Source: Perkinsus olseni (taxonomy: Eukaryota). Taken from it: a stretch of 36,474 nucleotides of DNA. Location of the stretch: NCBI GenBank assembly GCA_013115125.1, contig JABANN010000349.1, positions 1 through 36,474 on the forward strand, given 5' to 3'. The position numbers and the translations under genes are program-made. Below, piece by piece: positions 168 through 36,474 of the stretch (position 1 is the stretch's first letter; every line of letters begins with the position of its first letter). The notes beneath the pieces are model-generated. The model made no database searches, was not told the origin of the DNA, and saw nothing but the letters and a program-made list of their open reading frames with translations.

Positions 168-964
168 ATGCACGTGATGTTCCTCAAGGACTTGACAGCA
201 GAAGGTCTCACAAGGAAGCAGTCTCGAACCTTCCTCTTCACCTTGCTCTACATCGAAGAGGACGATGATGAGGCCGAGATCAGCGTCTCTGGCGTGGGCA
301 GGCTGAGCGAGATTATCGCCCATATTAACGAAGGGAAAAGTTTGCAGTATTTTTCAGTGTTCGAGAATAAGAACGGCTTTCATTTCGTATTGAAGTACGA
401 GACTCCAACGAGGTGGAAGCAGCTTGCCGATACCCTCCGCAACAAGTACGGAATCTCCACCTCGGTCAGCTGTGCCATACCCAGGCCAGGGTACAGGACC
501 TGCATGTACCCCGTGTTGTTCTCCTACTGCCTCGACTTGGACCCCAACCCCTACCTATCCCCCAATCATCCCCACCCCAGCAGCCTCCTCGGAGACGGAG
601 AGAGGCAGGGCTCGAGGGCCAGACGGACTCCAGCTTTGGACGGGGGTGGTCTGCCGGCACTCCCACCTTCACGAGGCACTGAGGAGGAGGAGACGGGGAT
701 CTTGGAGCATGTCGACAGTGATGGAGTATCCGCTGTGAGCGCGGAGGAAGAGGTTCAGTCCCATTTTTCGGGAGAGTCGGCGGAGTCTCATGCCCTGTCC
801 TGACCTTCCCGTGGGGACAGGGACGCGTTGCGTGAGAGGCTTCAGCGATGTTATTACTCCCCTTATATGATAGACCATAAGGAGCAGGTGAGGCGGATAG
901 AGCCGTGCACCCGATGTTTCGCTGATTGGCTTTTCACTGCCACCTTAGCTCAGACCCAGCATGA

Positions 965-968
<4 letters not shown>
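168..968 (+). pseudogene. CRESS-Rep-like paralog 1: HUH-like N-terminal domain, helicase domain deleted, in-frame TGA at 801-803 before a conserved C-terminal tail
   Basis: ORF 168-803 aligns by eye with 2031-3359 (QSRTFLFTL/QSRSYIYSW, KYETPTRWKQLADTLRNKYGI/KYGTPTRWKQLSDTLRSRYGI, CMYPVLFSYCLDLDPNPYLSPNHP/CMYPMLFSHCLDLDPSPFLSPHHP). After TGA 801-803 the same frame continues DALRERLQRCYYSPYMIDHKEQVRRIEPCTRCFADWLFTATLAQTQHE* (stop 966-968), matching the C-terminus of paralog 2. It could be a pseudogene or a functional truncated gene. Confidence 0.75.

Positions 969-1015
<47 letters not shown>
965..1015. repeat. (ATG/TGA)n trinucleotide microsatellite, 17 ATG units
   Basis: Perfect ATG x17 at 965-1015, starting at the terminal stop codon of paralog 1. 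Confidence 0.97.
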
Positions 1016-1415
1016 TTTTAGATACCCTCTCTTTGTTTGGTTCCCATCAATCGCTCCTTCCATCCTCCTCTCAGGCTAGACCCGTCGTCCACACTGTTGG
1101 TCGTGCAGGATAGGTAAGACCCTCCAGCTGCCCCCTCTCCCCGGTCGTCTCGACTGGCGGACATCTCCTGACTGTGAAGGCAGCGGCAACATGTGCATGG
1201 CAATACAGTGCCTCTAGCTGCTCGCTCTGTGGTGTTAGTCAGTTGGGGAATAAGCCACGGGCATCGTTGCTCGTCTTTCTGATATCTCCGCTCGCAATAG
1301 CAGTGTAAGCACTAGAGCTCTCTACGTAACTAACGGTGCGGACGTCACATCGTACAACATAGAATATGGCATCAGCTGAACCAATATCCAGTCAGCAGGG
1401 TTTTCCATAACAAAA

Positions 1416-2026
1416 ATGCAACCTATGTCACTCTCATCATCGTTCGCCGAAGCCCCGACTTTGAAGAAGCCAGTGTCTTGCACGGGCGGCGATGGTAAGG
1501 GGGCTCAGCTGTAGAGGACTTCTCGATGCCAGGCCGCGAGATACCCGCTTGTACTTTTGTCGTCGCCCGGTTGTTTCTCTGACTTGTTACTTTAGGCTCT
1601 TTTCTCCACAGTAACTGTTGCAATTTCTACCGGCCTGCAGTCAGGTCTACCGCTTTCCTTCATCGATGAAGATACTATCGTGTATGCCGATGAGCCCGAG
1701 ATAGACGATCCGAACCTCAAGATAATGGCCCTGAAGCAGCGTGAGTCCGCCTCTTTCCGGTGTTCGAGAAGAGTTGGGCTTGATTAGGTATCGATGTGTT
1801 GGAGGAGGAGAAGAAGTGGTTGGAGTGGCGTAGCTGTGTTGCGTCATTCTGCGATGAGGACATCATGCTTCAGGCCTTCGGAAATGGCAGGACTGCCACA
1901 AATGCTCAAAATGCAAACATGAGAAGCAGGAGGAGAAGGAGGACGAAGCCGTCGTTGTTAAGAGTAAGTTATCTGTTCTCTTCTTGAGTATCACAGAAGC
2001 TACTGATATGGCTGTATAGGAGGACC
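1416..2026 (+). CDS. Putative upstream exons of the Rep-like gene (short coiled coil plus basic NLS-like segment)
   Basis: Phase-consistent GT-AG introns at 1741-1787, 1964-2019 and 2027-2067 give ...DDPNLKIMALKQ-RIDVLEEEKKWLEW...NMRSRRRRRTKPSLLR-ED-RSARIMEV..., joining the 2031-3359 frame. The first exon (ATG 1416, donor GTAAG 1495) is less certain. Confidence 0.5.
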
Positions 2027-2030
2027 GTGA

Positions 2031-3359
2031 ATGTACATAGCGTCGAATAGCTTCGTCTGCGCCTCAGGCTCAGCAAGGATTATGGAAGTTTCGAGCCATG
2101 GCAGCCGAATGACCAGACACCAGTCGAGAAGCTACATCTACTCTTGGATCCATTGCAATGACATGGACCTACCAGATGGCGTGCTTAAAAAGCGGCTCAG
2201 TAGGGTGCTCGCCCAGCTAAACGAGGCCAAGTCTTTGACGTTCTATTCGATATTCATCGGCCAGCAGCAGAAGGACGGCAGTCGACTTGTACACTCCCTG
2301 CTGAAGTATGGAACCCCGACTCGGTGGAAGCAGCTCTCGGACACCCTTCGTAGCAGATATGGGATAGACGCGTCGATCAGATGTGCTGTCCCGAGGCCAG
2401 GCTTCAAGAGCTGCATGTACCCCATGCTCTTCAGCCACTGCCTTGACCTCGACCCTAGCCCCTTCCTGTCCCCTCATCATCCTGACCCAGAGAGCCTCCT
2501 CGACGTCGAGAGGCAGTGCTCGAAGGGCAGGCAGACTCTTGCTTTGGAGGGGGGCGATCTCTCGATGCTGCCGATCAAACGGGACGCTGAAAGGAAGGAT
2601 GGAATTCCGGAGCATGCTGGTGAGGACAGAGCACTGGCCGTGAGTGTGCTGGGAGACAGCCGAGCTTTTATGGATGAGTCTGTGGACTGTATGGAAGAGG
2701 ACAACACGGACCCGATGTATGAAGTGGAAGCTTGCCTGGAGGCCGAGTGCATCTGTGAGAGTCCCGCCCTGTGGCTTGAGAGAATATCGTCCTTGGTTGT
2801 GCGGAATCTTGGAGAAGGGGGAGCGAAGAAATTGAGGAACGATATCCAGCGGAACCTGGATGAGGGACGCTCGAAGGAGACTAATGTTGTTATCTACGGT
2901 GTGGCCTCCAGTGGTAAGACCGCCATACTGCGGCCTCTCACTCACATCTTGAAGTGCGCTAAGATCTCCGATGCTGAGGAAATCTCCCATGAGGATTTAC
3001 TCGACTGTGAGTGCATCTTGTGGAGTCACTTCTCCGTGGAAGATTTGCACGACAACTTTGATATGACGAAGTTGCTCAAACTCCTCGACGACCGCCCGGT
3101 TGAGATGAGCTGCTCGAGCGACCTGGGAAATACTGGCTCTACTTTCGACAAGTTGGTGCCAATTTTCCTGACGTGTGATGCGCTCCCTGTCCCAAGGGAA
3201 GATCACTACAGGGAGGCCTTACATGAGAGGCTTCAGCGATGTTATTACTTCCCTCGTAAGATGGACCACGAGGAGCGGGTAAAGCCGTTCAGGCCTTGCA
3301 ATCGGTGCTTCGCTGATTGGCTCTTCGCGGATAGATTGGCTCGAACTCAGCATGAATAA
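2031..3359 (+). CDS. CRESS-DNA-virus Rep-like protein (degenerate HUH endonuclease domain + SF3-helicase-like domain), paralog 2; probably terminal exon 2068-3359 of a spliced gene
   Basis: 442-aa ORF. Walker A NVVIYGVASSGKT (GVASSGKT at 2898-2921), Walker-B position CILWSHF, motif-C position PIFLTCD and Arg-finger region EALHERLQR appear in SF3 order and spacing. The N-terminal part has RCR motif I/II/III-like positions (SYIYSW; QQKDGSRLVHSLLKY; FSHCLDLDP). Confidence 0.75.
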   Translation: MYIASNSFVCASGSARIMEVSSHGSRMTRHQSRSYIYSWIHCNDMDLPDGVLKKRLSRVLAQLNEAKSLTFYSIFIGQQQKDGSRLVHSLLKYGTPTRWKQLSDTLRSRYGIDASIRCAVPRPGFKSCMYPMLFSHCLDLDPSPFLSPHHPDPESLLDVERQCSKGRQTLALEGGDLSMLPIKRDAERKDGIPEHAGEDRALAVSVLGDSRAFMDESVDCMEEDNTDPMYEVEACLEAECICESPALWLERISSLVVRNLGEGGAKKLRNDIQRNLDEGRSKETNVVIYGVASSGKTAILRPLTHILKCAKISDAEEISHEDLLDCECILWSHFSVEDLHDNFDMTKLLKLLDDRPVEMSCSSDLGNTGSTFDKLVPIFLTCDALPVPREDHYREALHERLQRCYYFPRKMDHEERVKPFRPCNRCFADWLFADRLARTQHE

Positions 3360-4224
3360 TGACGTTTCACCTGTCTGCTGTTCGGTTCAAATCAATTTCT
3401 GCGGCAATTATTCTCTCACGCTTGCAGGAGGTGGTGGTGACATTGCTGCTAATCAGCCGTAGGTACGGAAGCCTATCATGACTGTTTCGGTGGCAGAGCG
3501 TCGTCTTTGAAACATGTTGTGTCAAGTAAAATACCATTCGCAGGCGCTTCAATCTGCTGCTTCTGTAGCGTTGTCCAGTTTGGAAGTGAGGGGCTCAATA
3601 TGAGAGCGGATCGTGATGACTTGGGCTTCTTCTCCACCAGACGGTTCCCTTCCGATATTTTCCGGGAGCTTCAATGTACATCAGTCTGTAACGAAAAGAT
3701 TCAACATGGAGAAATGAGGCCACTATGCCATGAGGCGCGAGAATCGCCGGTATCTCAGCCGTTCGCCGGAGAGCTGCGCCAGCCGAGCGGCTCGAATTTC
3801 TGCTGTAGGTCCTTAGTCAGGAGCTACAGCAGGAGTCCTGACACGTAGAAGCGCCGTGTTCCGACTTTGGGCCGTAAAGTCTCCGCAGTAAGGGAACGAC
3901 CCACTTGCTGACCCCGAGATTCTCGAGTTGAGACCATTGGCGCCCCACCTGGCATAGTGGAGGCTGCATTCTTGCATGCTGCATTATCTTGTCGCAGGCT
4001 GCTGTATGTCGGGCACATCGCCCGAGCCTACCGAACTTGGTCAAGCATTTTTTAGCGGGAAACCGTGGCTAATTGTATTATGTAACGCACCACATGGTTG
4101 TCTAAACCATTCTAGTAGTGTGGTGTCTCGCTCACTTTATAGAAGTTTAGTGCACCGCGGTGTTTTCCTCAACACTGACCCTTGAGTCCTGACGGCTCAG
4201 TTTCCTCAGTACTACTGGGCACAG

Positions 4225-4283
4225 CTTCGGCTGGAGGGCCCACTGAGTCAGTACCACTGACTCAGTAGGCCCTCCAGCCGAAG
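4225..4283. repeat. 59-nt inverted repeat (28-bp arms, 1 mismatch, 3-nt loop); candidate rolling-circle origin-like or ITR-like hairpin
   Basis: CTTCGGCTGGAGGGCCCACTGAGTCAGT-ACC-ACTGACTCAGTAGGCCCTCCAGCCGAAG. The palindrome is seen directly; its function is inferred. Confidence 0.9.
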
Positions 4284-4554
4284 GGCGCCTCCTGCCGCCA
4301 GGTCCCGCGGTGAATCTTCCGAAGATTATCTTCGACTGACGGTGAGGGCATCAACAGTACATGCATAAGAAGACAATGTCCCAGGGAGAAACATGACTTT
4401 GAACTAGGAACTGATCGATGGTTCGGCGTTGAGCTTCGCAGTATCCCACAGGAGATCGGTGGTTTTCAAATATAGGCCGAGTGCCGCCAGCGCCGAGTGA
4501 AACCATCATGCACTGTTCGCGACACGTAAAGCTGCTTTTGAGGCTTCTTCACAT

Positions 4555-4845
4555 ATGTCGAACTCGCCATCCCAGCCCATCCAGCCCGTCGACTCACCAA
4601 ACGCGAGTGCCGGTGAGCTGGCTGCGATTATAGACAACATTTCTCTCGAGTCGATCGCCGTTTGTATTTTGTCTCTCCCATCTGTTGGAAGGTCGCGCGC
4701 TGAAATAGTATCTCGGAGACGTGGCTACCTGGCGCCTCCTTTGCGTGCTGTAATCCCTCGTCTGGGGGATAGTCAACCGTTTCACGAAGCCGTCATGAAA
4801 TTTCCTGAGACAGTGGATCCAGCAGTCTTGAATATACTCGTCTAG
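4555..4845 (+). CDS. Hypothetical protein (96 aa)
   Basis: ATG-initiated ORF with protein-like composition; no motif recognised. Confidence 0.25.
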   Translation: MSNSPSQPIQPVDSPNASAGELAAIIDNISLESIAVCILSLPSVGRSRAEIVSRRRGYLAPPLRAVIPRLGDSQPFHEAVMKFPETVDPAVLNILV

Positions 4846-6654
4846 CAGCCTTCTTGTCCGGATGAGGCACTGCCAAGGACTCACTCAGTATGAGTGTTCT
4901 AGTACTCAAAATTGAAATCATAGAAACTCACTGAACGCCTACTACGTCAACTCTAGAAGAATGGCGGACTGGGTTGCTTGGCGGAGTAGCATCGACTGTG
5001 ATGTATTCGGTCGCATTCGCCCTAGGCTGCACTACCTGGGGAGTATTTCCACCGTGGTTAAGCGTTAGGATGGTGGGCAGAAGGAACCGCTGTGACTATG
5101 CCTTAACGACATCCATAGCAGTTTCATTCGACGAGTTTCCGTCGGAAACTTTCCGAGAGTAACCACGAGGCGGTCGCCGAGCACTATTCCTATGAGTCTT
5201 GAATAACTTTATACGGTGCTAAACTCTTTCCGTAACTTAACCAGGACTGAACTCTCCGCCATGATTGCCGTTTCTCTGCTCCAGATATCTTTCACGACTG
5301 CGTGGAGTCTAACCCCCGGCGCTGTTCTGGTGAGCATAGCTATCACTCCTGAGCATGCTTTTCAACACCTGTCACTTCCTGCAGTGTCTAGTACCGTCGC
5401 TTCTCTAGTCGAATTCAGGCGATGAGGACGCTGTCCTTCAGATGAAGTTAGCTTATTGGACGCAACAGTTCTCTATGGGGATGAAGAAGGAGACTCGGAT
5501 ACCGAGGAGAAAGTGAGACCGAAGGCCATGTACGCGCACTCCAAGCAGCCTCGCCATAGTTAGTTGTGTCAGTCCCGCGGCGTGAGTTCGAGGCCATGGA
5601 GGAACGTAAGGCGTCCTTCAACTTCTGTATCAATCATGAGTACTCCTTCTACTCGCAGGCATTCGCTTCCTGGAGTCGGAAAAGGCTGAACTGAAGCAGG
5701 GCGGCAAGCAACTCCGTTTTCACGGCTGGTCGCCATTCTGTCACTGGATAGGTGCATCTAGCCGCGTTGGCTTCTGTCCGCAATGTTCGCATCGAAATCT
5801 GCCGGCAGAAGCGGGCGAGAGCCGCGGAGAAGGTGAGGACCCTCTCCGGCCCGGGTGCGGTGTTTACTACCTTACAGAAGCTGTTGCTATCACTAAGGCG
5901 GATATTTCGGTGACCAAATATACGTTGAAAAATGAATGCAGCGATATCATCTGTCTGCCATACATGAAAATAGCCATTGAAACCTCAAGACAAAAGCACT
6001 CGGACACTTGCGTGACGTAAGTCACGTCGAAATACATATCCTATGCATCCAAGACACGAGAGGGTGTCGTCCTACTCTTTCCAACTTCCACGATGTACTG
6101 CTCGTAACTGGGGAGTGTTCGACTCGTTTTGGTGAGGACACAGAGGGAAGTGTTTCGTAAACTTGTGGGCCGGGCTTCCCTCATGTGTATTCCGGCATGT
6201 GGCTGCCGCTCGGGTCACGATCATTCTCTTGAGTCTCGCAAACTCAAATTCTTCGGCTTCGATCTCACTGGAATCGTTCTTAATCTTGCGAAAGACATTA
6301 AGACTTTGCGGCGACTCGCCGGGGCAACCGAGAGGAGAACTCAACGCATATACTACAGGAACACTTTCCCAGTTGGCATCAAGAGACCTGAGTCGAACAG
6401 CCCCCCTGGTTATTAGGATTACACCGTCGAAGTTGAATGCACAGTAGTGAGGCATAGTCCTTCATTGATGCAACACTCAGGACCCATAAGGCCACTGGTC
6501 GAGGCAGGAATCCGCCCTCGCATAAACGTGAAATCAAGTAGCACTGTCGAGTGTCGGCGGACCGGCATGCGAATTTGGTTCGACTTGTACTTCTGTACTT
6601 CTAGTAGCTGCCACCTGAGAAGCGTGACACAGCACTTCAATCATACGCGATATC

Positions 6655-7200
6655 GTGGGCAGTACATGCCTCTCAGACCGCATCCCGGCCGAAGAGCTAG
6701 CCACGAGCGGCACCAGGATTACTCCCTGGCCCGTTCGTGACGCTTGTTCGGCAACTGAGCTTCGGTTGGCCGACCGAGAAGCTCAGGCCAGAGTCTACGT
6801 GTGGGACTGGCCGGAGTCCTCTCACGGCCTATCTCCTCGTCATATCGGGAAGTCGGAACTGGGACGTTTGGTAACGGAGCTGAACGTTGGAAAGGGACTC
6901 GCCCAGTTTTCGATCTTTTACCGACGCTTGCCAAGCGGAGCGGTCAATGCTCGCTTCATTGTTAAGTATTGGGGCTCACGACGTTGGGTGAAGATGTCAC
7001 AAACGCTGAGGACGGTGTATGGTATTCATGCTAGTACTCTGCAGGGCTCTCGTGGTTCCCTCAACTACGACTCGCTTTTCAACGATTGCCTCCTCGGTGA
7101 CCCGGAGCCCCTCCTCTCCCCCAACCACCCGCCCGTCCCGTTGCCTGATTATATACCCACCATTAGTAGAATGACTGGCATTCTTCAACCTTCGTCGTGA
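6655..7200 (+). CDS. CRESS-Rep-like paralog 3: N-terminal domain only; likely terminal exon from 6677
   Basis: QARVYVWDW...LGRLVTELNVGKGLAQFSIF...IVKYWGSRRWVKMSQTLRTVYGI...YDSLFNDCLLGDPEPLLSPNHP aligns colinearly with paralogs 1 and 2. The ORF has no ATG before the domain; a CCTCTCAG acceptor ends at 6676. Confidence 0.75.
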   Translation: MGSTCLSDRIPAEELATSGTRITPWPVRDACSATELRLADREAQARVYVWDWPESSHGLSPRHIGKSELGRLVTELNVGKGLAQFSIFYRRLPSGAVNARFIVKYWGSRRWVKMSQTLRTVYGIHASTLQGSRGSLNYDSLFNDCLLGDPEPLLSPNHPPVPLPDYIPTISRMTGILQPSS

Positions 7201-17498: not shown

Positions 17499-18896
17499 CT
17501 AGAGGTCGCAGGCTGTAGGGTCCTCCGGCGTCGTCCAGCAGAGACCTCCAACCCACTGTGCGCCGTCCTTCAACCAGTTGAACCGGAAAGTAAGGTCGTT
17601 ACCACCAGGCGCATACTGTATTTGGAGGAAGAACCCTAGAATGGTGATTTGGAAGGCCAAGAAGGCTACACCGTAGATGACGCACAAGCGCCCGAGCGCT
17701 TTCACCGACCGCAGCCCCGTGACTTTCTTGATAACCCTCGTCAAGAACATGAAAACGCACACTTCGCCGACGACATCCAAGCAGTTGAAGAAGATACCCT
17801 GCCAAAAGGCCTTGTCTTCGACCAAAGCAAAGTTGTCATTGGGCCTCTTATTGAAGTAATAGATAGCGAACGAGCAAATGGTGTACTGCAAGGGAGCGAT
17901 CATCTCAGCGAACTCCATGAGCAAGGATACTGTGACCAGTTGCCGGGCCGTCTCAGAGCACTCAGTCTTGTACTGTAGACGACGCAGCTCGAGCACATGG
18001 TAGAGGTTCTCAGAGAGGTCATAGACGATGAAGACTGCAAAGACGTACCACGCCGACACTCTGTTCATGAGGATGGCTATGAAGGTCTCGTGGCAGAAGC
18101 AAGAGGAGAAGATGAAGAGAGGATAGCCGTCTTGAGCCCGCTTTGAGAGGAGACGAGTTCCAACCTTCTCGTAAATGCCGCGGACCACACAGAAGGCGAG
18201 GGCCATGAACGCTTGAGGGATGCCTTCAAGCTGGTTAAAGAGAGCACCGCCGAGCGGGTAGATGACGCCATAGACAACCGTGACGCCTACGAGTATCCCA
18301 ACCGATACGAAGAAGTCCGCACGGTGAGACCTTTCTTGCAGGACGGCAGGGTTCATGAAGAAGTACAAGTATACGAAGACGAGGGGGATTATGGCCGCGG
18401 CCTGGATGACAGCCAGCATGGGCACTGGGAAGACGTCGAAGATGAGGTAGGGGATAATGCCGCCGAGAGTGACAATGCCGGCGCTCAAGTAGGGCACCAT
18501 TAGGAACTGCCCCCATGGCGTTCGGAACAACGGTACGGTGAGAAGAGCTCCGGGGACGAAGGGGTACATGGTACTGCCGGCGAAGTCCATGACGAAGAGC
18601 GTGACGAAATGCCACACCATTGCAGTGGTAGAGGTCTCGTCAGCGTCGGGTAACCCAGGGATCCAGAAGGGTATGACGGCGAAGAGGGGAGCAAGGAGGA
18701 CGGCCAAGAGCCACTTCTCGGGGGACTTGGTACCGTCGTAAAAGCGAGAGTGGCTCTCGCGCATGACTGCTTCGATACGGTCAGCAATGGACGAAGAGCG
18801 CGGGCGCTGAATAGACCTGGCGTCATCGGCGAAGGTCGGGTTGGGGATCGGTTGGGACTCCTGCAAGGAGTAACGGGTGACTGAAGATGATGCCAT
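17499..18896 (-). CDS. Intronless multi-pass membrane protein (about 10-11 hydrophobic segments), unknown function
   Basis: 465-aa ATG-to-stop ORF with repeated hydrophobic stretches of about 20 aa (e.g. WLLAVLLAPLFAVIPFWIP, FFVSVGILVGVTVVYGVIYPLGGALF) and visibly G/C-rich third codon positions. Confidence 0.88.
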   Translation of the reverse strand: MASSSVTRYSLQESQPIPNPTFADDARSIQRPRSSSIADRIEAVMRESHSRFYDGTKSPEKWLLAVLLAPLFAVIPFWIPGLPDADETSTTAMVWHFVTLFVMDFAGSTMYPFVPGALLTVPLFRTPWGQFLMVPYLSAGIVTLGGIIPYLIFDVFPVPMLAVIQAAAIIPLVFVYLYFFMNPAVLQERSHRADFFVSVGILVGVTVVYGVIYPLGGALFNQLEGIPQAFMALAFCVVRGIYEKVGTRLLSKRAQDGYPLFIFSSCFCHETFIAILMNRVSAWYVFAVFIVYDLSENLYHVLELRRLQYKTECSETARQLVTVSLLMEFAEMIAPLQYTICSFAIYYFNKRPNDNFALVEDKAFWQGIFFNCLDVVGEVCVFMFLTRVIKKVTGLRSVKALGRLCVIYGVAFLAFQITILGFFLQIQYAPGGNDLTFRFNWLKDGAQWVGGLCWTTPEDPTACDL

Positions 18897-34199: not shown

Positions 34200-36474
34200 T
34201 TAGTAAGCGGGTTAGCGGGCAAACCCGTTGTGTTAATTTCCCGTTCAATGAAGTGATTCTGAAACTCGGAATCTAATCTTTGTCCAACTCGTGCGGTATT
34301 CGCGAATCACAAATACCGCGAAATCGATTCTTTTTCTGCTGAATGGAACCAGACTCATCGAGTGTAGCGCGTAGTGAAATCTCAGAAGATGAGAGGGAGG
34401 ATTGCGCACGCCACCACCAAGATTCCGACACAAAAGAACGGAGTGTGAAACGCTCAAGCGCTGTCTTGAAGTGAAGCGCTGACCTCTAGGCAGGTAGTGA
34501 CAGATAGTGAGTCACTTCCGCAGGGACGTGTATCGACGACCTAGCGTGCTCTGTAAAATTCGCAGTGTTGCAGTGGAATGCGGCTGGCCACCCAGCTGCA
34601 TTAGAACGTGATCACAGGATCGGGAGTACGTAAAATACAACAAGTCGTCTGGACAGCAGAACAGTACCAAATCTTCATGAGGGCAGCCGAACATAAAAAG
34701 GCAACAACACAGGGTGACTTGACTTCGAAAATATGACGCATTCGGGTGAAATCGTTAGCGCCCCACGTACAGAATAAGACTATCCAAACCACCCGGATGA
34801 TTCTCTTTCAATAGAGCTTGAACTCACAATGAGTCACTCATCGATTCTCTTGAGAAGGTCTTGAGAGTGCCCATCGTGAGCCAGTGGACGATATTAGGGA
34901 TGCAGTATGCCTTTGGATCACGTGATCTCCTTTTAACTTCTTGAAGCGTCTTCGGCCAGGTATCAATCGAGACGTTACTGCCAGGTGGCGAGATGTATTC
35001 ACTGTAAGCCTTCAGCTGCTCCCTAGATAGCTCCCATTTATGTTCTGAGGAAGAAATTGATGTGCTAGCTTGTAATCCGAAATATCCGCTTCTCTATCCT
35101 CGGTAAGAGCATCGCCGTATGAAAATTGTTCGTTCACATGTTGAGAGAATAATTTGCAATATCAAGAGCTCACTACACAAAGCTCTGTCTCCTCTGTGCT
35201 TTCATAGCTATTCATTCACCTCTCTTCCCTGTACTCTGTCCATCAGAGTTATTCTACTGTTGGGTTAACAGTGCAGCGTAGCAGCTCCTTGTTACAAGAA
35301 TGGGTGACAACAATGCCAACGAGCCTACTCTATATTATGCTCTGCCTGAGTGTTATGATCCAATTACTAGCATGCTTGACTTCGAACAGTGGGTTCGAAA
35401 GTATCAAGCCTGTGCTAAGGCGAATAAGTGGTCTGATGAGGATAAGCTTAGACACCTCCCTCCCCTACTTAAAGGAGACGCTTGGATCATCTATGATGAG
35501 CTTGATGAAGAAGAGAAGGATACGCTAGAGAAGCTGGTTGACAATCTGACTAAGAAGTTGACGGTGGCTACTCAAATACAGTGTGGAGAACAACTACATC
35601 AACGTGTTTTTGACTATGGTAACGAGACCTTACTGACATATCAGAATGATGTGAAACGTTTGGCACATCGAGCGTATCCAGACATGCAAGATGCCCAGCT
35701 CAAACCCATAGTCCTGATGGCATTCATACGTGGACTTCGTGGTCACTCTGTATCTCTTGCTCGTAAGGTGCGTAATGCAAACCCCAAGACATTTGATCAG
35801 GCATTGCAGAAGGCCCAGTTCATCATGTCGGACCCGTTTATCGATGAAGCTGAACGTTCAGATCAAGAAGCTTTACGCCATGAACTGATCGCCATCAATG
35901 ACATCGACCAGCTTAGGGCGCAAGCCCCTGGACAAGAAGAGTATCATCAAAGCCAAGAGCCTACGGTATCATCGCTAACATCGTCACCATCTGCATCTCT
36001 GCCCGACGCGTCGAGAGATTCGTCTTCGTCGTCACCGGAATGGGTGGATAAGATTGTGAACGCCATAAAGAAGATAGAGCAGAAATGTGACTACTGCGGT
36101 AAATGGGGTCACCTAGAGTCCGACTGCTTCAAGAAGAGGCGAGATAGGAAGGCACAAGCGACTGCGCGGGCATCATCTAATGGTGAATCTGGTCAGAGGT
36201 TCCGTCGAGAGTATCCACGAACAGTTGGTGCGACATGCGGTTATTGTTTGAAACGGAATCATACTGAAGAGCAGTGCCAAACAAAGCGTCGAGCACTAGA
36301 ATTAAAAGGTCATCCTGTATCTGATGATGCTATTATGAGACCGAATGAGGTCAATGCTGTTAGTCTGGAGACTTCCCAGGGTAATCGTATACCCCTACTT
36401 GTGTAGTGAATGTTGTTGATACCACTACAACTCAACTCACACAGAGTTGTTAAAGGCTTAACTTAACCCTTACT
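34200..36474 (+). mobile_element. 5' part of an LTR retrotransposon, cut by the window end; left boundary unresolved
   Basis: AT-richer non-coding stretch preceding gag; no second LTR copy in the window to define the boundaries. Confidence 0.5.
35300..36406 (+). CDS. gag: LTR-retrotransposon Gag (Ty3/Gypsy-like capsid + two CCHC zinc knuckles)
   Basis: Intronless 368-aa ORF. Capsid-like FEQWVRKY...KWSDEDKLRHLPPLLKGDAWIIYDEL, AFIRGL and PKTFDQAL; two C-X2-C-X4-H-X4-C knuckles, CDYCGKWGHLESDC and CGYCLKRNHTEEQC. Confidence 0.9.
   Translation: MGDNNANEPTLYYALPECYDPITSMLDFEQWVRKYQACAKANKWSDEDKLRHLPPLLKGDAWIIYDELDEEEKDTLEKLVDNLTKKLTVATQIQCGEQLHQRVFDYGNETLLTYQNDVKRLAHRAYPDMQDAQLKPIVLMAFIRGLRGHSVSLARKVRNANPKTFDQALQKAQFIMSDPFIDEAERSDQEALRHELIAINDIDQLRAQAPGQEEYHQSQEPTVSSLTSSPSASLPDASRDSSSSSPEWVDKIVNAIKKIEQKCDYCGKWGHLESDCFKKRRDRKAQATARASSNGESGQRFRREYPRTVGATCGYCLKRNHTEEQCQTKRRALELKGHPVSDDAIMRPNEVNAVSLETSQGNRIPLLV

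What the first reader, a model, noticed from the sequence alone, without database searches (positions are those of the whole stretch)
2031..3359. Full-length Rep-like ORF is intact but both enzymatic centres look inactivated
Seen: Walker A is intact (GVASSGKT), but the Walker B position reads ILWSHF with no acidic pair, and motif C reads FLTCD rather than hhTSN. The HUH position has a single His (RLVHS), and the motif III Tyr is His (SHCLD). Paralog 1 keeps FLFTL, FHF and SYCLD; paralog 3 has NAR and NDCLL. Known: Rep nicking needs the HUH metal ligands plus the YxxK tyrosine, and SF3 hydrolysis needs Walker B D/E residues. Inference: this is a pseudo-enzyme that may bind nucleotide/DNA and oligomerise without nicking or unwinding, which fits a restriction factor or a repurposed DNA-binding protein.
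Basis: partly seen in the sequence, partly recalled or inferred. Interest (0 to 1): 0.75.

Follow-up and report, generated by a model that had tools for sequence, protein, structure and literature searches.

The report
Disarmed transposon Rep kept by Perkinsus
A shellfish parasite keeps and expresses a virus-type DNA-replication gene whose DNA-cutting and motor sites are both disabled, next to a still-intact sister gene, which suggests that a mobile-element enzyme was tamed and split into one working copy and several non-enzymatic ones.

Summary
Mostly confirmed. The ORF is the last exon of a spliced, expressed five-exon gene (1425-3359, 529 aa) of a Perkinsus olseni-type protist; ATG 2031 lies in intron 4. 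Against 43 relatives it lacks the HUH-site Glu, the first His, the YxxK Tyr and the only Walker B acid; Walker A Lys, Arg finger and four Cys remain. An intact paralog heads the same array. P. marinus has the same order and a dead ortholog sharing the HUH losses. Constraint is moderate (SF3 dN/dS 0.42); alleles differ by 10-12% in SF3. Relatives sit beside Tc1-type DD34E transposases in 42 of 80 metagenome loci, with no recurring capsid, so a transposon origin is likelier than a CRESS virus; the scan noted that pairing before in another genome. Best reading (0.45): a non-catalytic DNA-binding partner of a domesticated Rep. Binding and function are not shown.

The parts
1397..1424 (+). 5' leader of the transcript; both spliced contigs start matching at the AG at 1397-1398 (possible trans-splice acceptor, inferred)
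   Evidence: table 8 (X7 record 2 has 7 unmatched letters before it, X8 record 5 has 4); Perkinsus has spliced leaders (PMC3101222 abstract)
1425..1493 (+). coding exon 1 (true ATG at 1425)
1644..1740 (+). coding exon 2, start of the N-terminal coiled-coil-like module
1788..1829 (+). coding exon 3, coiled-coil-like heptads
1874..1963 (+). coding exon 4, CxxCxxC motif
   Evidence: table 5 (X7)
2068..3359 (+). coding exon 5: the whole Rep-derived part, to the stop
2118..2525 (+). HUH-fold domain, catalytically dead: Gly at the motif II Glu (2259-2261), Leu at the first His (2286-2288), second His kept (2292-2294), structural Tyr130 kept (2418-2420), His at the YxxK Tyr (2436-2438)
2526..2705 (+). 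decayed oligomerisation bundle / linker (pLDDT <50; helical bundle at 94-97 in the intact paralog)
2706..3338 (+). SF3 AAA+ fold with CxC and CxxC: Walker A intact (2898-2921), His at the Walker B acid (3027-3029), B' hairpin poor in basic residues, motif C region 3165-3179, Arg finger kept (3228-3230)
168..968 (+). paralog 1: HUH domain lacking the first His, most of SF3 deleted, C-terminal remnant at 816-968 86% like the intact paralog
5441..7200 (+). paralog 3: HUH-only dead copy (main exon 6628-7200; upstream exon-like matches at 5441-5942, structure not resolved)

Best explanation
A domesticated pseudo-enzyme. Shown: the gene is a spliced, transcribed duplicate of an intact HUH+SF3 Rep gene (copy A on G000:C2978) that is conserved in three Perkinsus species. 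The duplication and the loss of the nicking site predate the P. olseni / P. marinus split; the Walker B acid is gone in both species by different residues. The HUH and SF3 folds, Walker A Lys, Arg finger and four Cys are kept, the oligomerisation bundle is eroded, and an intron-containing N-terminal coiled-coil + CxxCxxC module is attached. Inferred: the ancestral gene came from a Tc1/IS630-type transposon that carries a Rep. The dead copy cannot nick or unwind DNA. It most likely works as a non-catalytic DNA-binding subunit or regulator of copy A, binding DNA through the HUH fold (as the dead HUH domains of papilloma E1 and polyoma LT do) and protein partners through the coiled coil, much as Paramecium PgmL proteins serve PiggyMac. 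The SF3 half may be in slow decay, since most other dead paralogs have shed it.
For: Catalytic losses against 43 + 40 relatives. Spliced contigs in two studies. Full-length alleles P0095, P0098, P0099, P0102 share all losses. Finding + P. marinus dead copy form a clade, 97/95 in the HUH tree; dead SF3 clade 99/99; own-genome-only clades rejected, p-AU 0.005, 0.021 and 5e-5. Identity to the P. marinus dead ortholog: HUH 68 of 133 and SF3 121 of 204, against linker 10 of 47 (p 5e-4 and 3e-6), while in copy A the linker is as conserved as the HUH. dN/dS against the C861 copy, which shares the Walker B loss: SF3 0.42 (0.26-0.61), residues 91-165 0.25 (0.12-0.45). Neutral simulation leaves a 407-codon frame open in 0 of 500 runs at 0.2 substitutions per site (76). 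All 9 non-A Perkinsus HUH domains have a broken HUH by several routes yet share 12 invariant residues. The N-terminal module is shared by the dead paralogs, and a weaker coiled-coil stretch is in copy A of both species.
Against: No binding partner, DNA target or phenotype is known. Constraint is moderate, not strong: residues 30-90 and the linker are near neutral (dN/dS 0.67-0.90). Alleles differ at 22-25 of about 210 SF3 residues, many private to the window's allele, including a family-conserved Gly (108, 110). Gene conversion has homogenised residues 286-380 with the C861 copy, which complicates pairwise dN/dS. Copy number differs between assemblies: a HUH-only neighbour seen in other records (P0070) was not found in G000. 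The coiled-coil match in copy A is weak (E 0.037). No transposase lies near the array itself.
Confidence: 0.45

Rival explanations
1. Slowly decaying duplicate: an expressed extra copy of A with only residual constraint (folding, avoidance of toxicity), kept open partly by gene conversion within the array, with no job of its own.
For: Near-neutral dN/dS in residues 30-90 and the linker; many private changes in the window's allele; conversion tracts; paralog 1 has an internal deletion and paralog content varies; branches several times longer than those of A.
Against: Open frame kept in two species whose intact A copies already differ by about 25%; no recent overwriting by A (dS to A about 1.0-1.4; trees); domain-specific conservation after the catalytic losses; a conserved spliced N-terminal module.
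Confidence: 0.22
2. Independent exaptation: a stand-alone sequence-specific DNA-binding or chromatin protein that dimerises through its coiled coil and no longer works with copy A.
For: Bundle that would join it to a Rep ring is gone; HUH-only paralogs keep only the N-terminal module + HUH; precedent of dead HUH as origin-binding domain (PMC6668415 passages).
Against: Stays in one tandem array behind A in two species; keeps Walker A and the Arg finger.
Confidence: 0.15
3. Restriction factor: a decoy that binds the origins or Reps of incoming Rep-encoding elements and blocks them.
For: High allelic amino-acid variation, tandem array, conversion and copy-number change resemble defence loci; a second Rep subfamily, partly beside transposase remnants, is in the same genome.
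Against: That subfamily is only 23-29% identical and the oligomerisation bundle is lost, so poisoning its rings is unlikely; no sign of dN/dS above 1 (112).
Confidence: 0.13
4. Still an enzyme through substitute residues (Tyr130 as nucleophile, motif C Asp or Walker B His for catalysis).
For: Tyr130, His88, Walker A Lys and Arg finger are kept.
Against: Tyr130 is kept in 9 of 9 dead paralogs, as a structural residue would be, and the family's YxxK tyrosine is 136; two of three metal ligands are gone; the P. marinus ortholog has also lost the Walker A Thr (26).
Confidence: 0.05

Closest known systems
apvRep genes of avipoxviruses and HHV-6 U94 (PMC10193959, passages read)
   Same: Captured HUH+SF3 Rep with inactivated HUH/Tyr, duplicated, domain-trimmed paralogs, expressed, dN/dS 0.17-0.33, function unknown.
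   Different: Here the keeper is a eukaryote nucleus; an intact paralog is retained; Walker B is lost while the Arg finger is kept (the reverse of apvRep-2/-5); introns and a new N-terminal module were gained; the donor looks like a transposon-borne Rep.
PiggyMac and PiggyMac-like proteins of Paramecium (PMC6143343, abstract read)
   Same: One domesticated mobile-element nuclease with an intact site plus several paralogs without a catalytic site, in an alveolate.
   Different: DDD PiggyBac transposase, not HUH+SF3; interaction and role in DNA elimination were shown there, nothing of the kind is shown here. An analogy, not homology.
Papillomavirus E1 / polyomavirus large T (PMC6668415 passages; folds)
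   Same: Dead HUH fold ahead of an SF3 domain; PPV_E1_C is the best Pfam match of copy A (E 5.9e-5, below cut-off).
   Different: E1 and LT keep an active helicase and oligomerisation domain; here both are lost; identity under 20%.
Rep + transposase element of Tuber melanosporum, and DENSOV_HM of Hydra (PMC3198968, section 8 read)
   Same: [quoted passage not shown]
   Different: The truffle Rep is geminivirus-like; whether DENSOV_HM belongs to this family was not tested (no sequence at hand). The window's gene has no transposase or terminal repeats near it.
CRESS-DNA virus and parvovirus Reps (AAV Rep68, PCV2, geminivirus, Vientovirus)
   Same: HUH, helical bundle and SF3 in the same order; motif II aligns with geminivirus RELHENGEPHLH; model matches AAV2 Rep68 at E 5.5e-12.
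   Different: 10-19% identity; CxC and CxxC cysteines; single-acid Walker B; no recurring capsid neighbour; no relatives in 3 scans of viral contigs.

Membership tests
Active HUH Rep endonuclease | HUH-type fold | tested here: met
   Model has the beta-sheet/helix pattern with pLDDT mostly 82-97 over residues 31-160 (35); copy A aligns to 9pqf at Z 9.3, rmsd 3.0, 109 residues and 1l2m at Z 9.1, rmsd 3.2, 109 (103)
Active HUH Rep endonuclease | Metal ligands (Glu of ExH, two His) | tested here: not met
   Gly77, Leu86; only His88 kept
Active HUH Rep endonuclease | Catalytic Tyr of YxxK | tested here: not met
   His136; family Tyr in 39 of 42 and 40 of 40
Active HUH Rep endonuclease | ssDNA nicking activity | not testable with these tools
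   needs a bench assay
Active SF3 helicase | SF3 AAA+ fold with Walker A and Arg finger | tested here: met
   Lys296 and Arg400 as in 43 of 43 relatives; folds like AAV Rep40/E1
Active SF3 helicase | Walker B acid | tested here: not met
   His333 (Arg in two alleles); Asp/Glu in all 43 outside relatives
Active SF3 helicase | Motif C Asn | tested here: inconclusive
   Asp here, but the family itself rarely has Asn: 5 of 47 (33); Asp in 8 of 40 (94)
Active SF3 helicase | Oligomerisation bundle before the ATPase | tested here: not met
   pLDDT <50 at 166-223 against 94-97 in copy A with the same 48 sequences; 10 of 47 identity to the ortholog
Endogenous CRESS-DNA virus / parvovirus element | Capsid gene or origin structure beside the Rep, or close viral relatives | tested here: inconclusive
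   No recurring neighbour other than a transposase among 144 non-Rep ORFs of 85 loci; 3 viral-contig scans gave no relative, but these are pattern-limited and only one subfamily was sampled in metagenomes
Rep-carrying Tc1/IS630-type transposon (family of origin) | DDE transposase beside the Rep in relatives | tested here: met
   42 of 80 loci, 33 of 38 with at least 1.5 kb flank, all opposite strand; DD34E in 26 of 27; DDE_3 / HTH_Tnp_Tc3_2; DDE_3 remnants beside 3 of 4 Reps of a second Perkinsus subfamily
Rep-carrying Tc1/IS630-type transposon (family of origin) | Terminal inverted repeats around both genes | tested here: inconclusive
   Repeats of 27-283 nt spanning 3.5-4.5 kb in 6 of 34 loci (L027, L042-44, L057, L078), TA at both ends in L078; two more of 16-19 nt; most contigs are short
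Rep-carrying Tc1/IS630-type transposon (family of origin) | The window's gene itself lies in such an element | tested here: not met
   No transposase match in the window, C2978 or C861 (63); same locus order in two species
Domesticated mobile-element gene | Orthologous, syntenic, intact across species | tested here: met
   P. marinus PMAR002898 intact, 002897 dead full-length, 002896 HUH-only; C2978 joins C861 by a 73-nt overlap. The join between C861 and the window was not found.
Domesticated mobile-element gene | Expression | tested here: met
   Spliced contigs: 4 joints in X7, 2 in X8, none in DNA run X9 (31); the runs' RNA status is not on record
Domesticated mobile-element gene | Purifying selection | tested here: met
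   Moderate and uneven: 0.25-0.42 in parts, about 0.7 in others
Domesticated mobile-element gene | Host function | not testable with these tools
   needs genetics
Replitron / Helitron | Replitron: no helicase; Helitron: Y2 Rep with SF1B helicase | tested here: not met
   SF3 domain present; definitions from PMC10288648 passages

The most novel reading that the evidence does not exclude
Perkinsus runs a PiggyMac/PgmL-like machine built from a rolling-circle Rep: one domesticated active HUH-SF3 nickase-helicase plus several catalytically dead paralogs that join it through coiled coils and aim it at host DNA, all descended from an unnamed, widespread Tc1-type transposon that carries its own Rep.
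Probability: 0.2. Interest if true: 0.85.

Novelty: new variant of a known kind. Interest (0 to 1): 0.6.

Why it matters
Retained dead Reps are known from poxviruses and herpesviruses, and active-plus-dead domesticated transposases from ciliates. A nuclear, intron-bearing family with one intact HUH-SF3 gene and at least nine independently disarmed HUH domains, in an early relative of dinoflagellates, did not appear in my paper searches (open-access library only). If the dead copies serve the intact one, this would be a host DNA-processing system of a new build in a genetically tractable parasite. The family also points to a common, little-described transposon that couples a Tc1 transposase with a Rep helicase.

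Tried and rejected
phmmer of the ORF against solved structures: 0 matches; the family profile was needed. Pfam: no family above its cut-off for the ORF or copy A. Viral contigs: 3 scans, no confirmed relative, weak as a negative. No RNA holder is on record among 17 runs; expression rests on spliced joints only. Contig depth was not used to rank genes. The atlas gave no usable feature hit for the N-terminal module and only generic coiled-coil shapes. No complex prediction was obtained, so binding between paralogs was not examined. 'No acidic pair' and 'motif C not hhTSN' were rejected as evidence. The B' hairpin has 1 basic residue against 6 and 4 in copies A, but many intact relatives have 0-2, so it is only weak support. 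My first dN/dS (0.30) was too low because it ignored transition bias; the corrected value is 0.42. The hairpin at 4225-4283 is single-copy in G000 and was not linked to the gene. A 7-nt micro-exon noted earlier (e1-7222863) is not among the four joints seen. Paper searches: L31+transposon+ORF2+IS630 gave 0; Tc1 mariner + SF3 + transposase + HUH gave 10 papers, 9 listed, none by title or abstract start on this element; Perkinsus+domesticated+transposon+Rep gave 4, none on this gene by listing. I recall, from no call, that L31 transposons of molluscs and corals carry a second ORF; the transposases here are DD34E while L31 is named DD37E, so that link is untested. Supplements of the papers were not read and could list these sequences.

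Full report
Numbering is that of the 442-residue ORF (P0001); add 87 for the spliced protein.

1. The observation. The frame 2031-3359 is open and carries the five motifs quoted. Its closest relatives are hypothetical proteins of Perkinsus olseni, P. marinus and P. chesapeaki. The start is wrong. Contigs of runs X7 and X8 (two studies; RNA status not on record) skip GT..AG introns at 1493>1644 and 1740>1788 (both) and 1829>1874 and 1963>2068 (X7); DNA run X9 shows none of them. The spliced CDS 1425-3359 gives 529 residues without a stop, identical to public protein P0100. The extra 99 N-terminal residues hold a coiled-coil-like stretch and CxxCxxC, shared with the P. marinus ortholog and the other dead paralogs.

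2. What the protein is. The HMMER search gave 65 relatives. I aligned 43 of them (leaving out short fragments and HUH-only Perkinsus proteins, and using P0069 for P0004) with three own-genome ORFs and the query, 48 rows. The family profile matches the SF3 domains of AAV Rep, B19 NS1 and papillomavirus E1 (best E 1.5e-6) and, weakly, the HUH domains of Vientovirus and geminivirus Reps. The model (mean pLDDT 80.7) matches AAV2 Rep68 at E 5.5e-12 and parvovirus and CRESS Reps at 10-16% identity. It is a HUH + SF3 Rep of a lineage marked by CxC and CxxC cysteines.

3. Are the centres dead? Among the 43 rows outside the array: Glu77 39 of 41 (here Gly), His79 34 of 41 (Gln), His86 37 of 39 (Leu), His88 38 of 40 (kept), Tyr130 40 of 42 (kept), Tyr136 39 of 42 (His), Asp333 35 of 43 with Glu in the others (His), Lys296, Arg400, Cys242, Cys423 and Cys426 43 of 43 (kept). 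An independent set of 40 full-length metagenome Reps keeps all seven tested catalytic positions in 35. Motif II aligns with the geminivirus ExH..HxH motif (the Glu's role as third metal ligand is recalled). Tyr136 is the YxxK tyrosine: Lys follows at +3 in at least 90% of 32 rows, while Tyr130 survives in 9 of 9 dead paralogs. The decisive ATPase loss is the single acid. New here: the bundle between the domains is helical with pLDDT 94-97 in the intact paralog and below 50 in this protein, from the same 48 sequences. This region drives oligomerisation in AAV Rep (PMC3375335, abstract).

4. The array. G000 holds an intact paralog, A (C2978:14285-15610, 53% identical), a second dead full-length copy (C861, 65%), and the window's paralogs 1 and 3. 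C2978 overlaps C861 by 73 identical bases; no overlap joins C861 to the window. P. marinus has PMAR002898 (intact, 75% to A), 002897 (dead, 49% to this gene) and 002896 (HUH only) in consecutive tags; P. chesapeaki has a partial record with the intact HUH (P0006). The finding groups with the P. marinus dead copy in the HUH tree (97/95), and the dead SF3 domains form a clade (99/99); clades of own-genome copies are rejected (p-AU 0.005, 0.021, 5e-5). Both species share Leu86 and His136 and lack the Glu; Walker B is His or Arg in P. olseni alleles and Gln in P. marinus. All 9 non-A HUH domains examined have a broken HUH, by several different substitutions.

5. Selection, for and against. After the shared losses, identity to the P. 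marinus ortholog is 68 of 133 in HUH and 121 of 204 in SF3 against 10 of 47 in the linker (p 5e-4, 3e-6); in A the linker is 48 of 69. Against C861, which shares the Walker B loss, uncorrected dN/dS in SF3 is 0.30 where neutral simulation gives medians of 0.68-0.79 and a minimum of 0.39; with transition bias corrected it is 0.42 (0.26-0.61), and 0.25 (0.12-0.45) in residues 91-165. Against: residues 30-90 (0.68-0.90) and the linker (0.67) cannot be told from neutral; alleles P0098 and P0099 differ at 22 of 211 and 25 of 209 SF3 residues, more than in HUH (5 and 9 of 136); many changes are private to the window's allele, including Gly354 (40 of 43 in relatives), and residues 286-380 are as close to the C861-type gene as to alleles, a sign of conversion. 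I had no DNA for those alleles. The fair reading is moderate, uneven constraint.

6. Origin. A metagenome scan with one subfamily (10 sequences) confirmed 227 stretches and returned the best 80. The only recurring neighbour is a Tc1/IS630-type transposase: 42 of 80 loci, 33 of 38 with a flank of 1.5 kb or more, always on the opposite strand, DD34E in 26 of 27. Inverted repeats of 27-283 nt span 3.5-4.5 kb in 6 of 34 loci, with TA ends in L078. A second Rep subfamily in G000 has DDE remnants beside 3 of 4 copies. The array itself has no transposase and does not group with that subfamily, so descent from such a transposon is inferred (about 0.75), not shown. An earlier scan note (e1-7140875) reported the same pairing in another genome; I saw it after my own count.

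7. Mechanism. Shown: expression, orthology, loss of the catalytic residues and of the bundle, retention of both folds. Inferred: no nicking, no translocation, possible ATP and zinc binding, DNA binding through the HUH fold (precedent: PMC6668415 passages), and contact with A through the N-terminal coiled coil, which has a weak counterpart in A of both species. I give the partner/regulator model 0.45, slow decay 0.22, independent DNA-binding role 0.15, restriction factor 0.13, residual enzyme 0.05.

8. Comparison. It works most like the apvRep/U94 class of kept, disarmed Reps (PMC10193959 passages), and the family layout recalls PiggyMac and its PgmLs (PMC6143343 abstract). It is not a member of either, nor an active Rep, Replitron or Helitron. 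Papers seen: PMC3198968 passages and section 8; PMC7325037, PMC10288648, 10.1101/656579, PMC10193959 and PMC6668415 passages; PMC6143343, PMC3375335 and PMC3101222 abstracts; the rest as search listings only; no supplements.

9. Verdict. A real, expressed, cross-species pseudo-enzyme in a domesticated Rep family: new variant of a known kind, interest 0.6.

Noticed in passing
L021-L100 (metagenome loci), e.g. L043:1270-4758, L078:816-4791: Widespread 3.5-4.5 kb elements with an intact HUH+SF3 Rep and a DD34E Tc1-type transposase on opposite strands, some inside terminal inverted repeats; not found described in my paper searches.
   Followed up: partly
G000:C2978:14285-15610 (L003/L007): Intact Rep paralog, 75% identical to its P. 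marinus ortholog, with upstream exon-like matches; a candidate active domesticated nickase-helicase in its own right.
   Followed up: partly
G000:C169, C394, C348, C429 (L017, L011, L019, L018): A second Perkinsus Rep subfamily, two with long open frames and two broken, three beside DDE transposase remnants.
   Followed up: partly
window 384-821 (run X8, record 4): A contig matches paralog 1 over 384-821 but its loose 5' end reads like the C861 gene, hinting that the two are alleles or recombine.
   Followed up: no
window 4225-4283: Near-perfect hairpin (28-nt arms, 3-nt loop), single-copy in G000.
   Followed up: partly
window 966-1014: (ATG/GAT)n microsatellite right after the C-terminal remnant of paralog 1.
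   Followed up: no
window 5084-5251: 74% match to G000:C169:2569-2722, a contig that also carries a Rep of the second subfamily.
   Followed up: no
window 3473-5055 (run X9): Another isolate shows loose ends near 3680-3745 and a 268-nt skip at 4786-5055; other records place a further HUH-only gene (P0070) after this gene, so the interval is structurally variable.
   Followed up: no
window 35300-36406 (+): 368-aa Gag-like ORF with two CCHC-type knuckles, AT-richer than the rest; probably the start of an LTR retrotransposon.
   Followed up: no
window 17499-18896 (-): 465-aa intronless multi-pass membrane protein ORF without a Pfam match.
   Followed up: no
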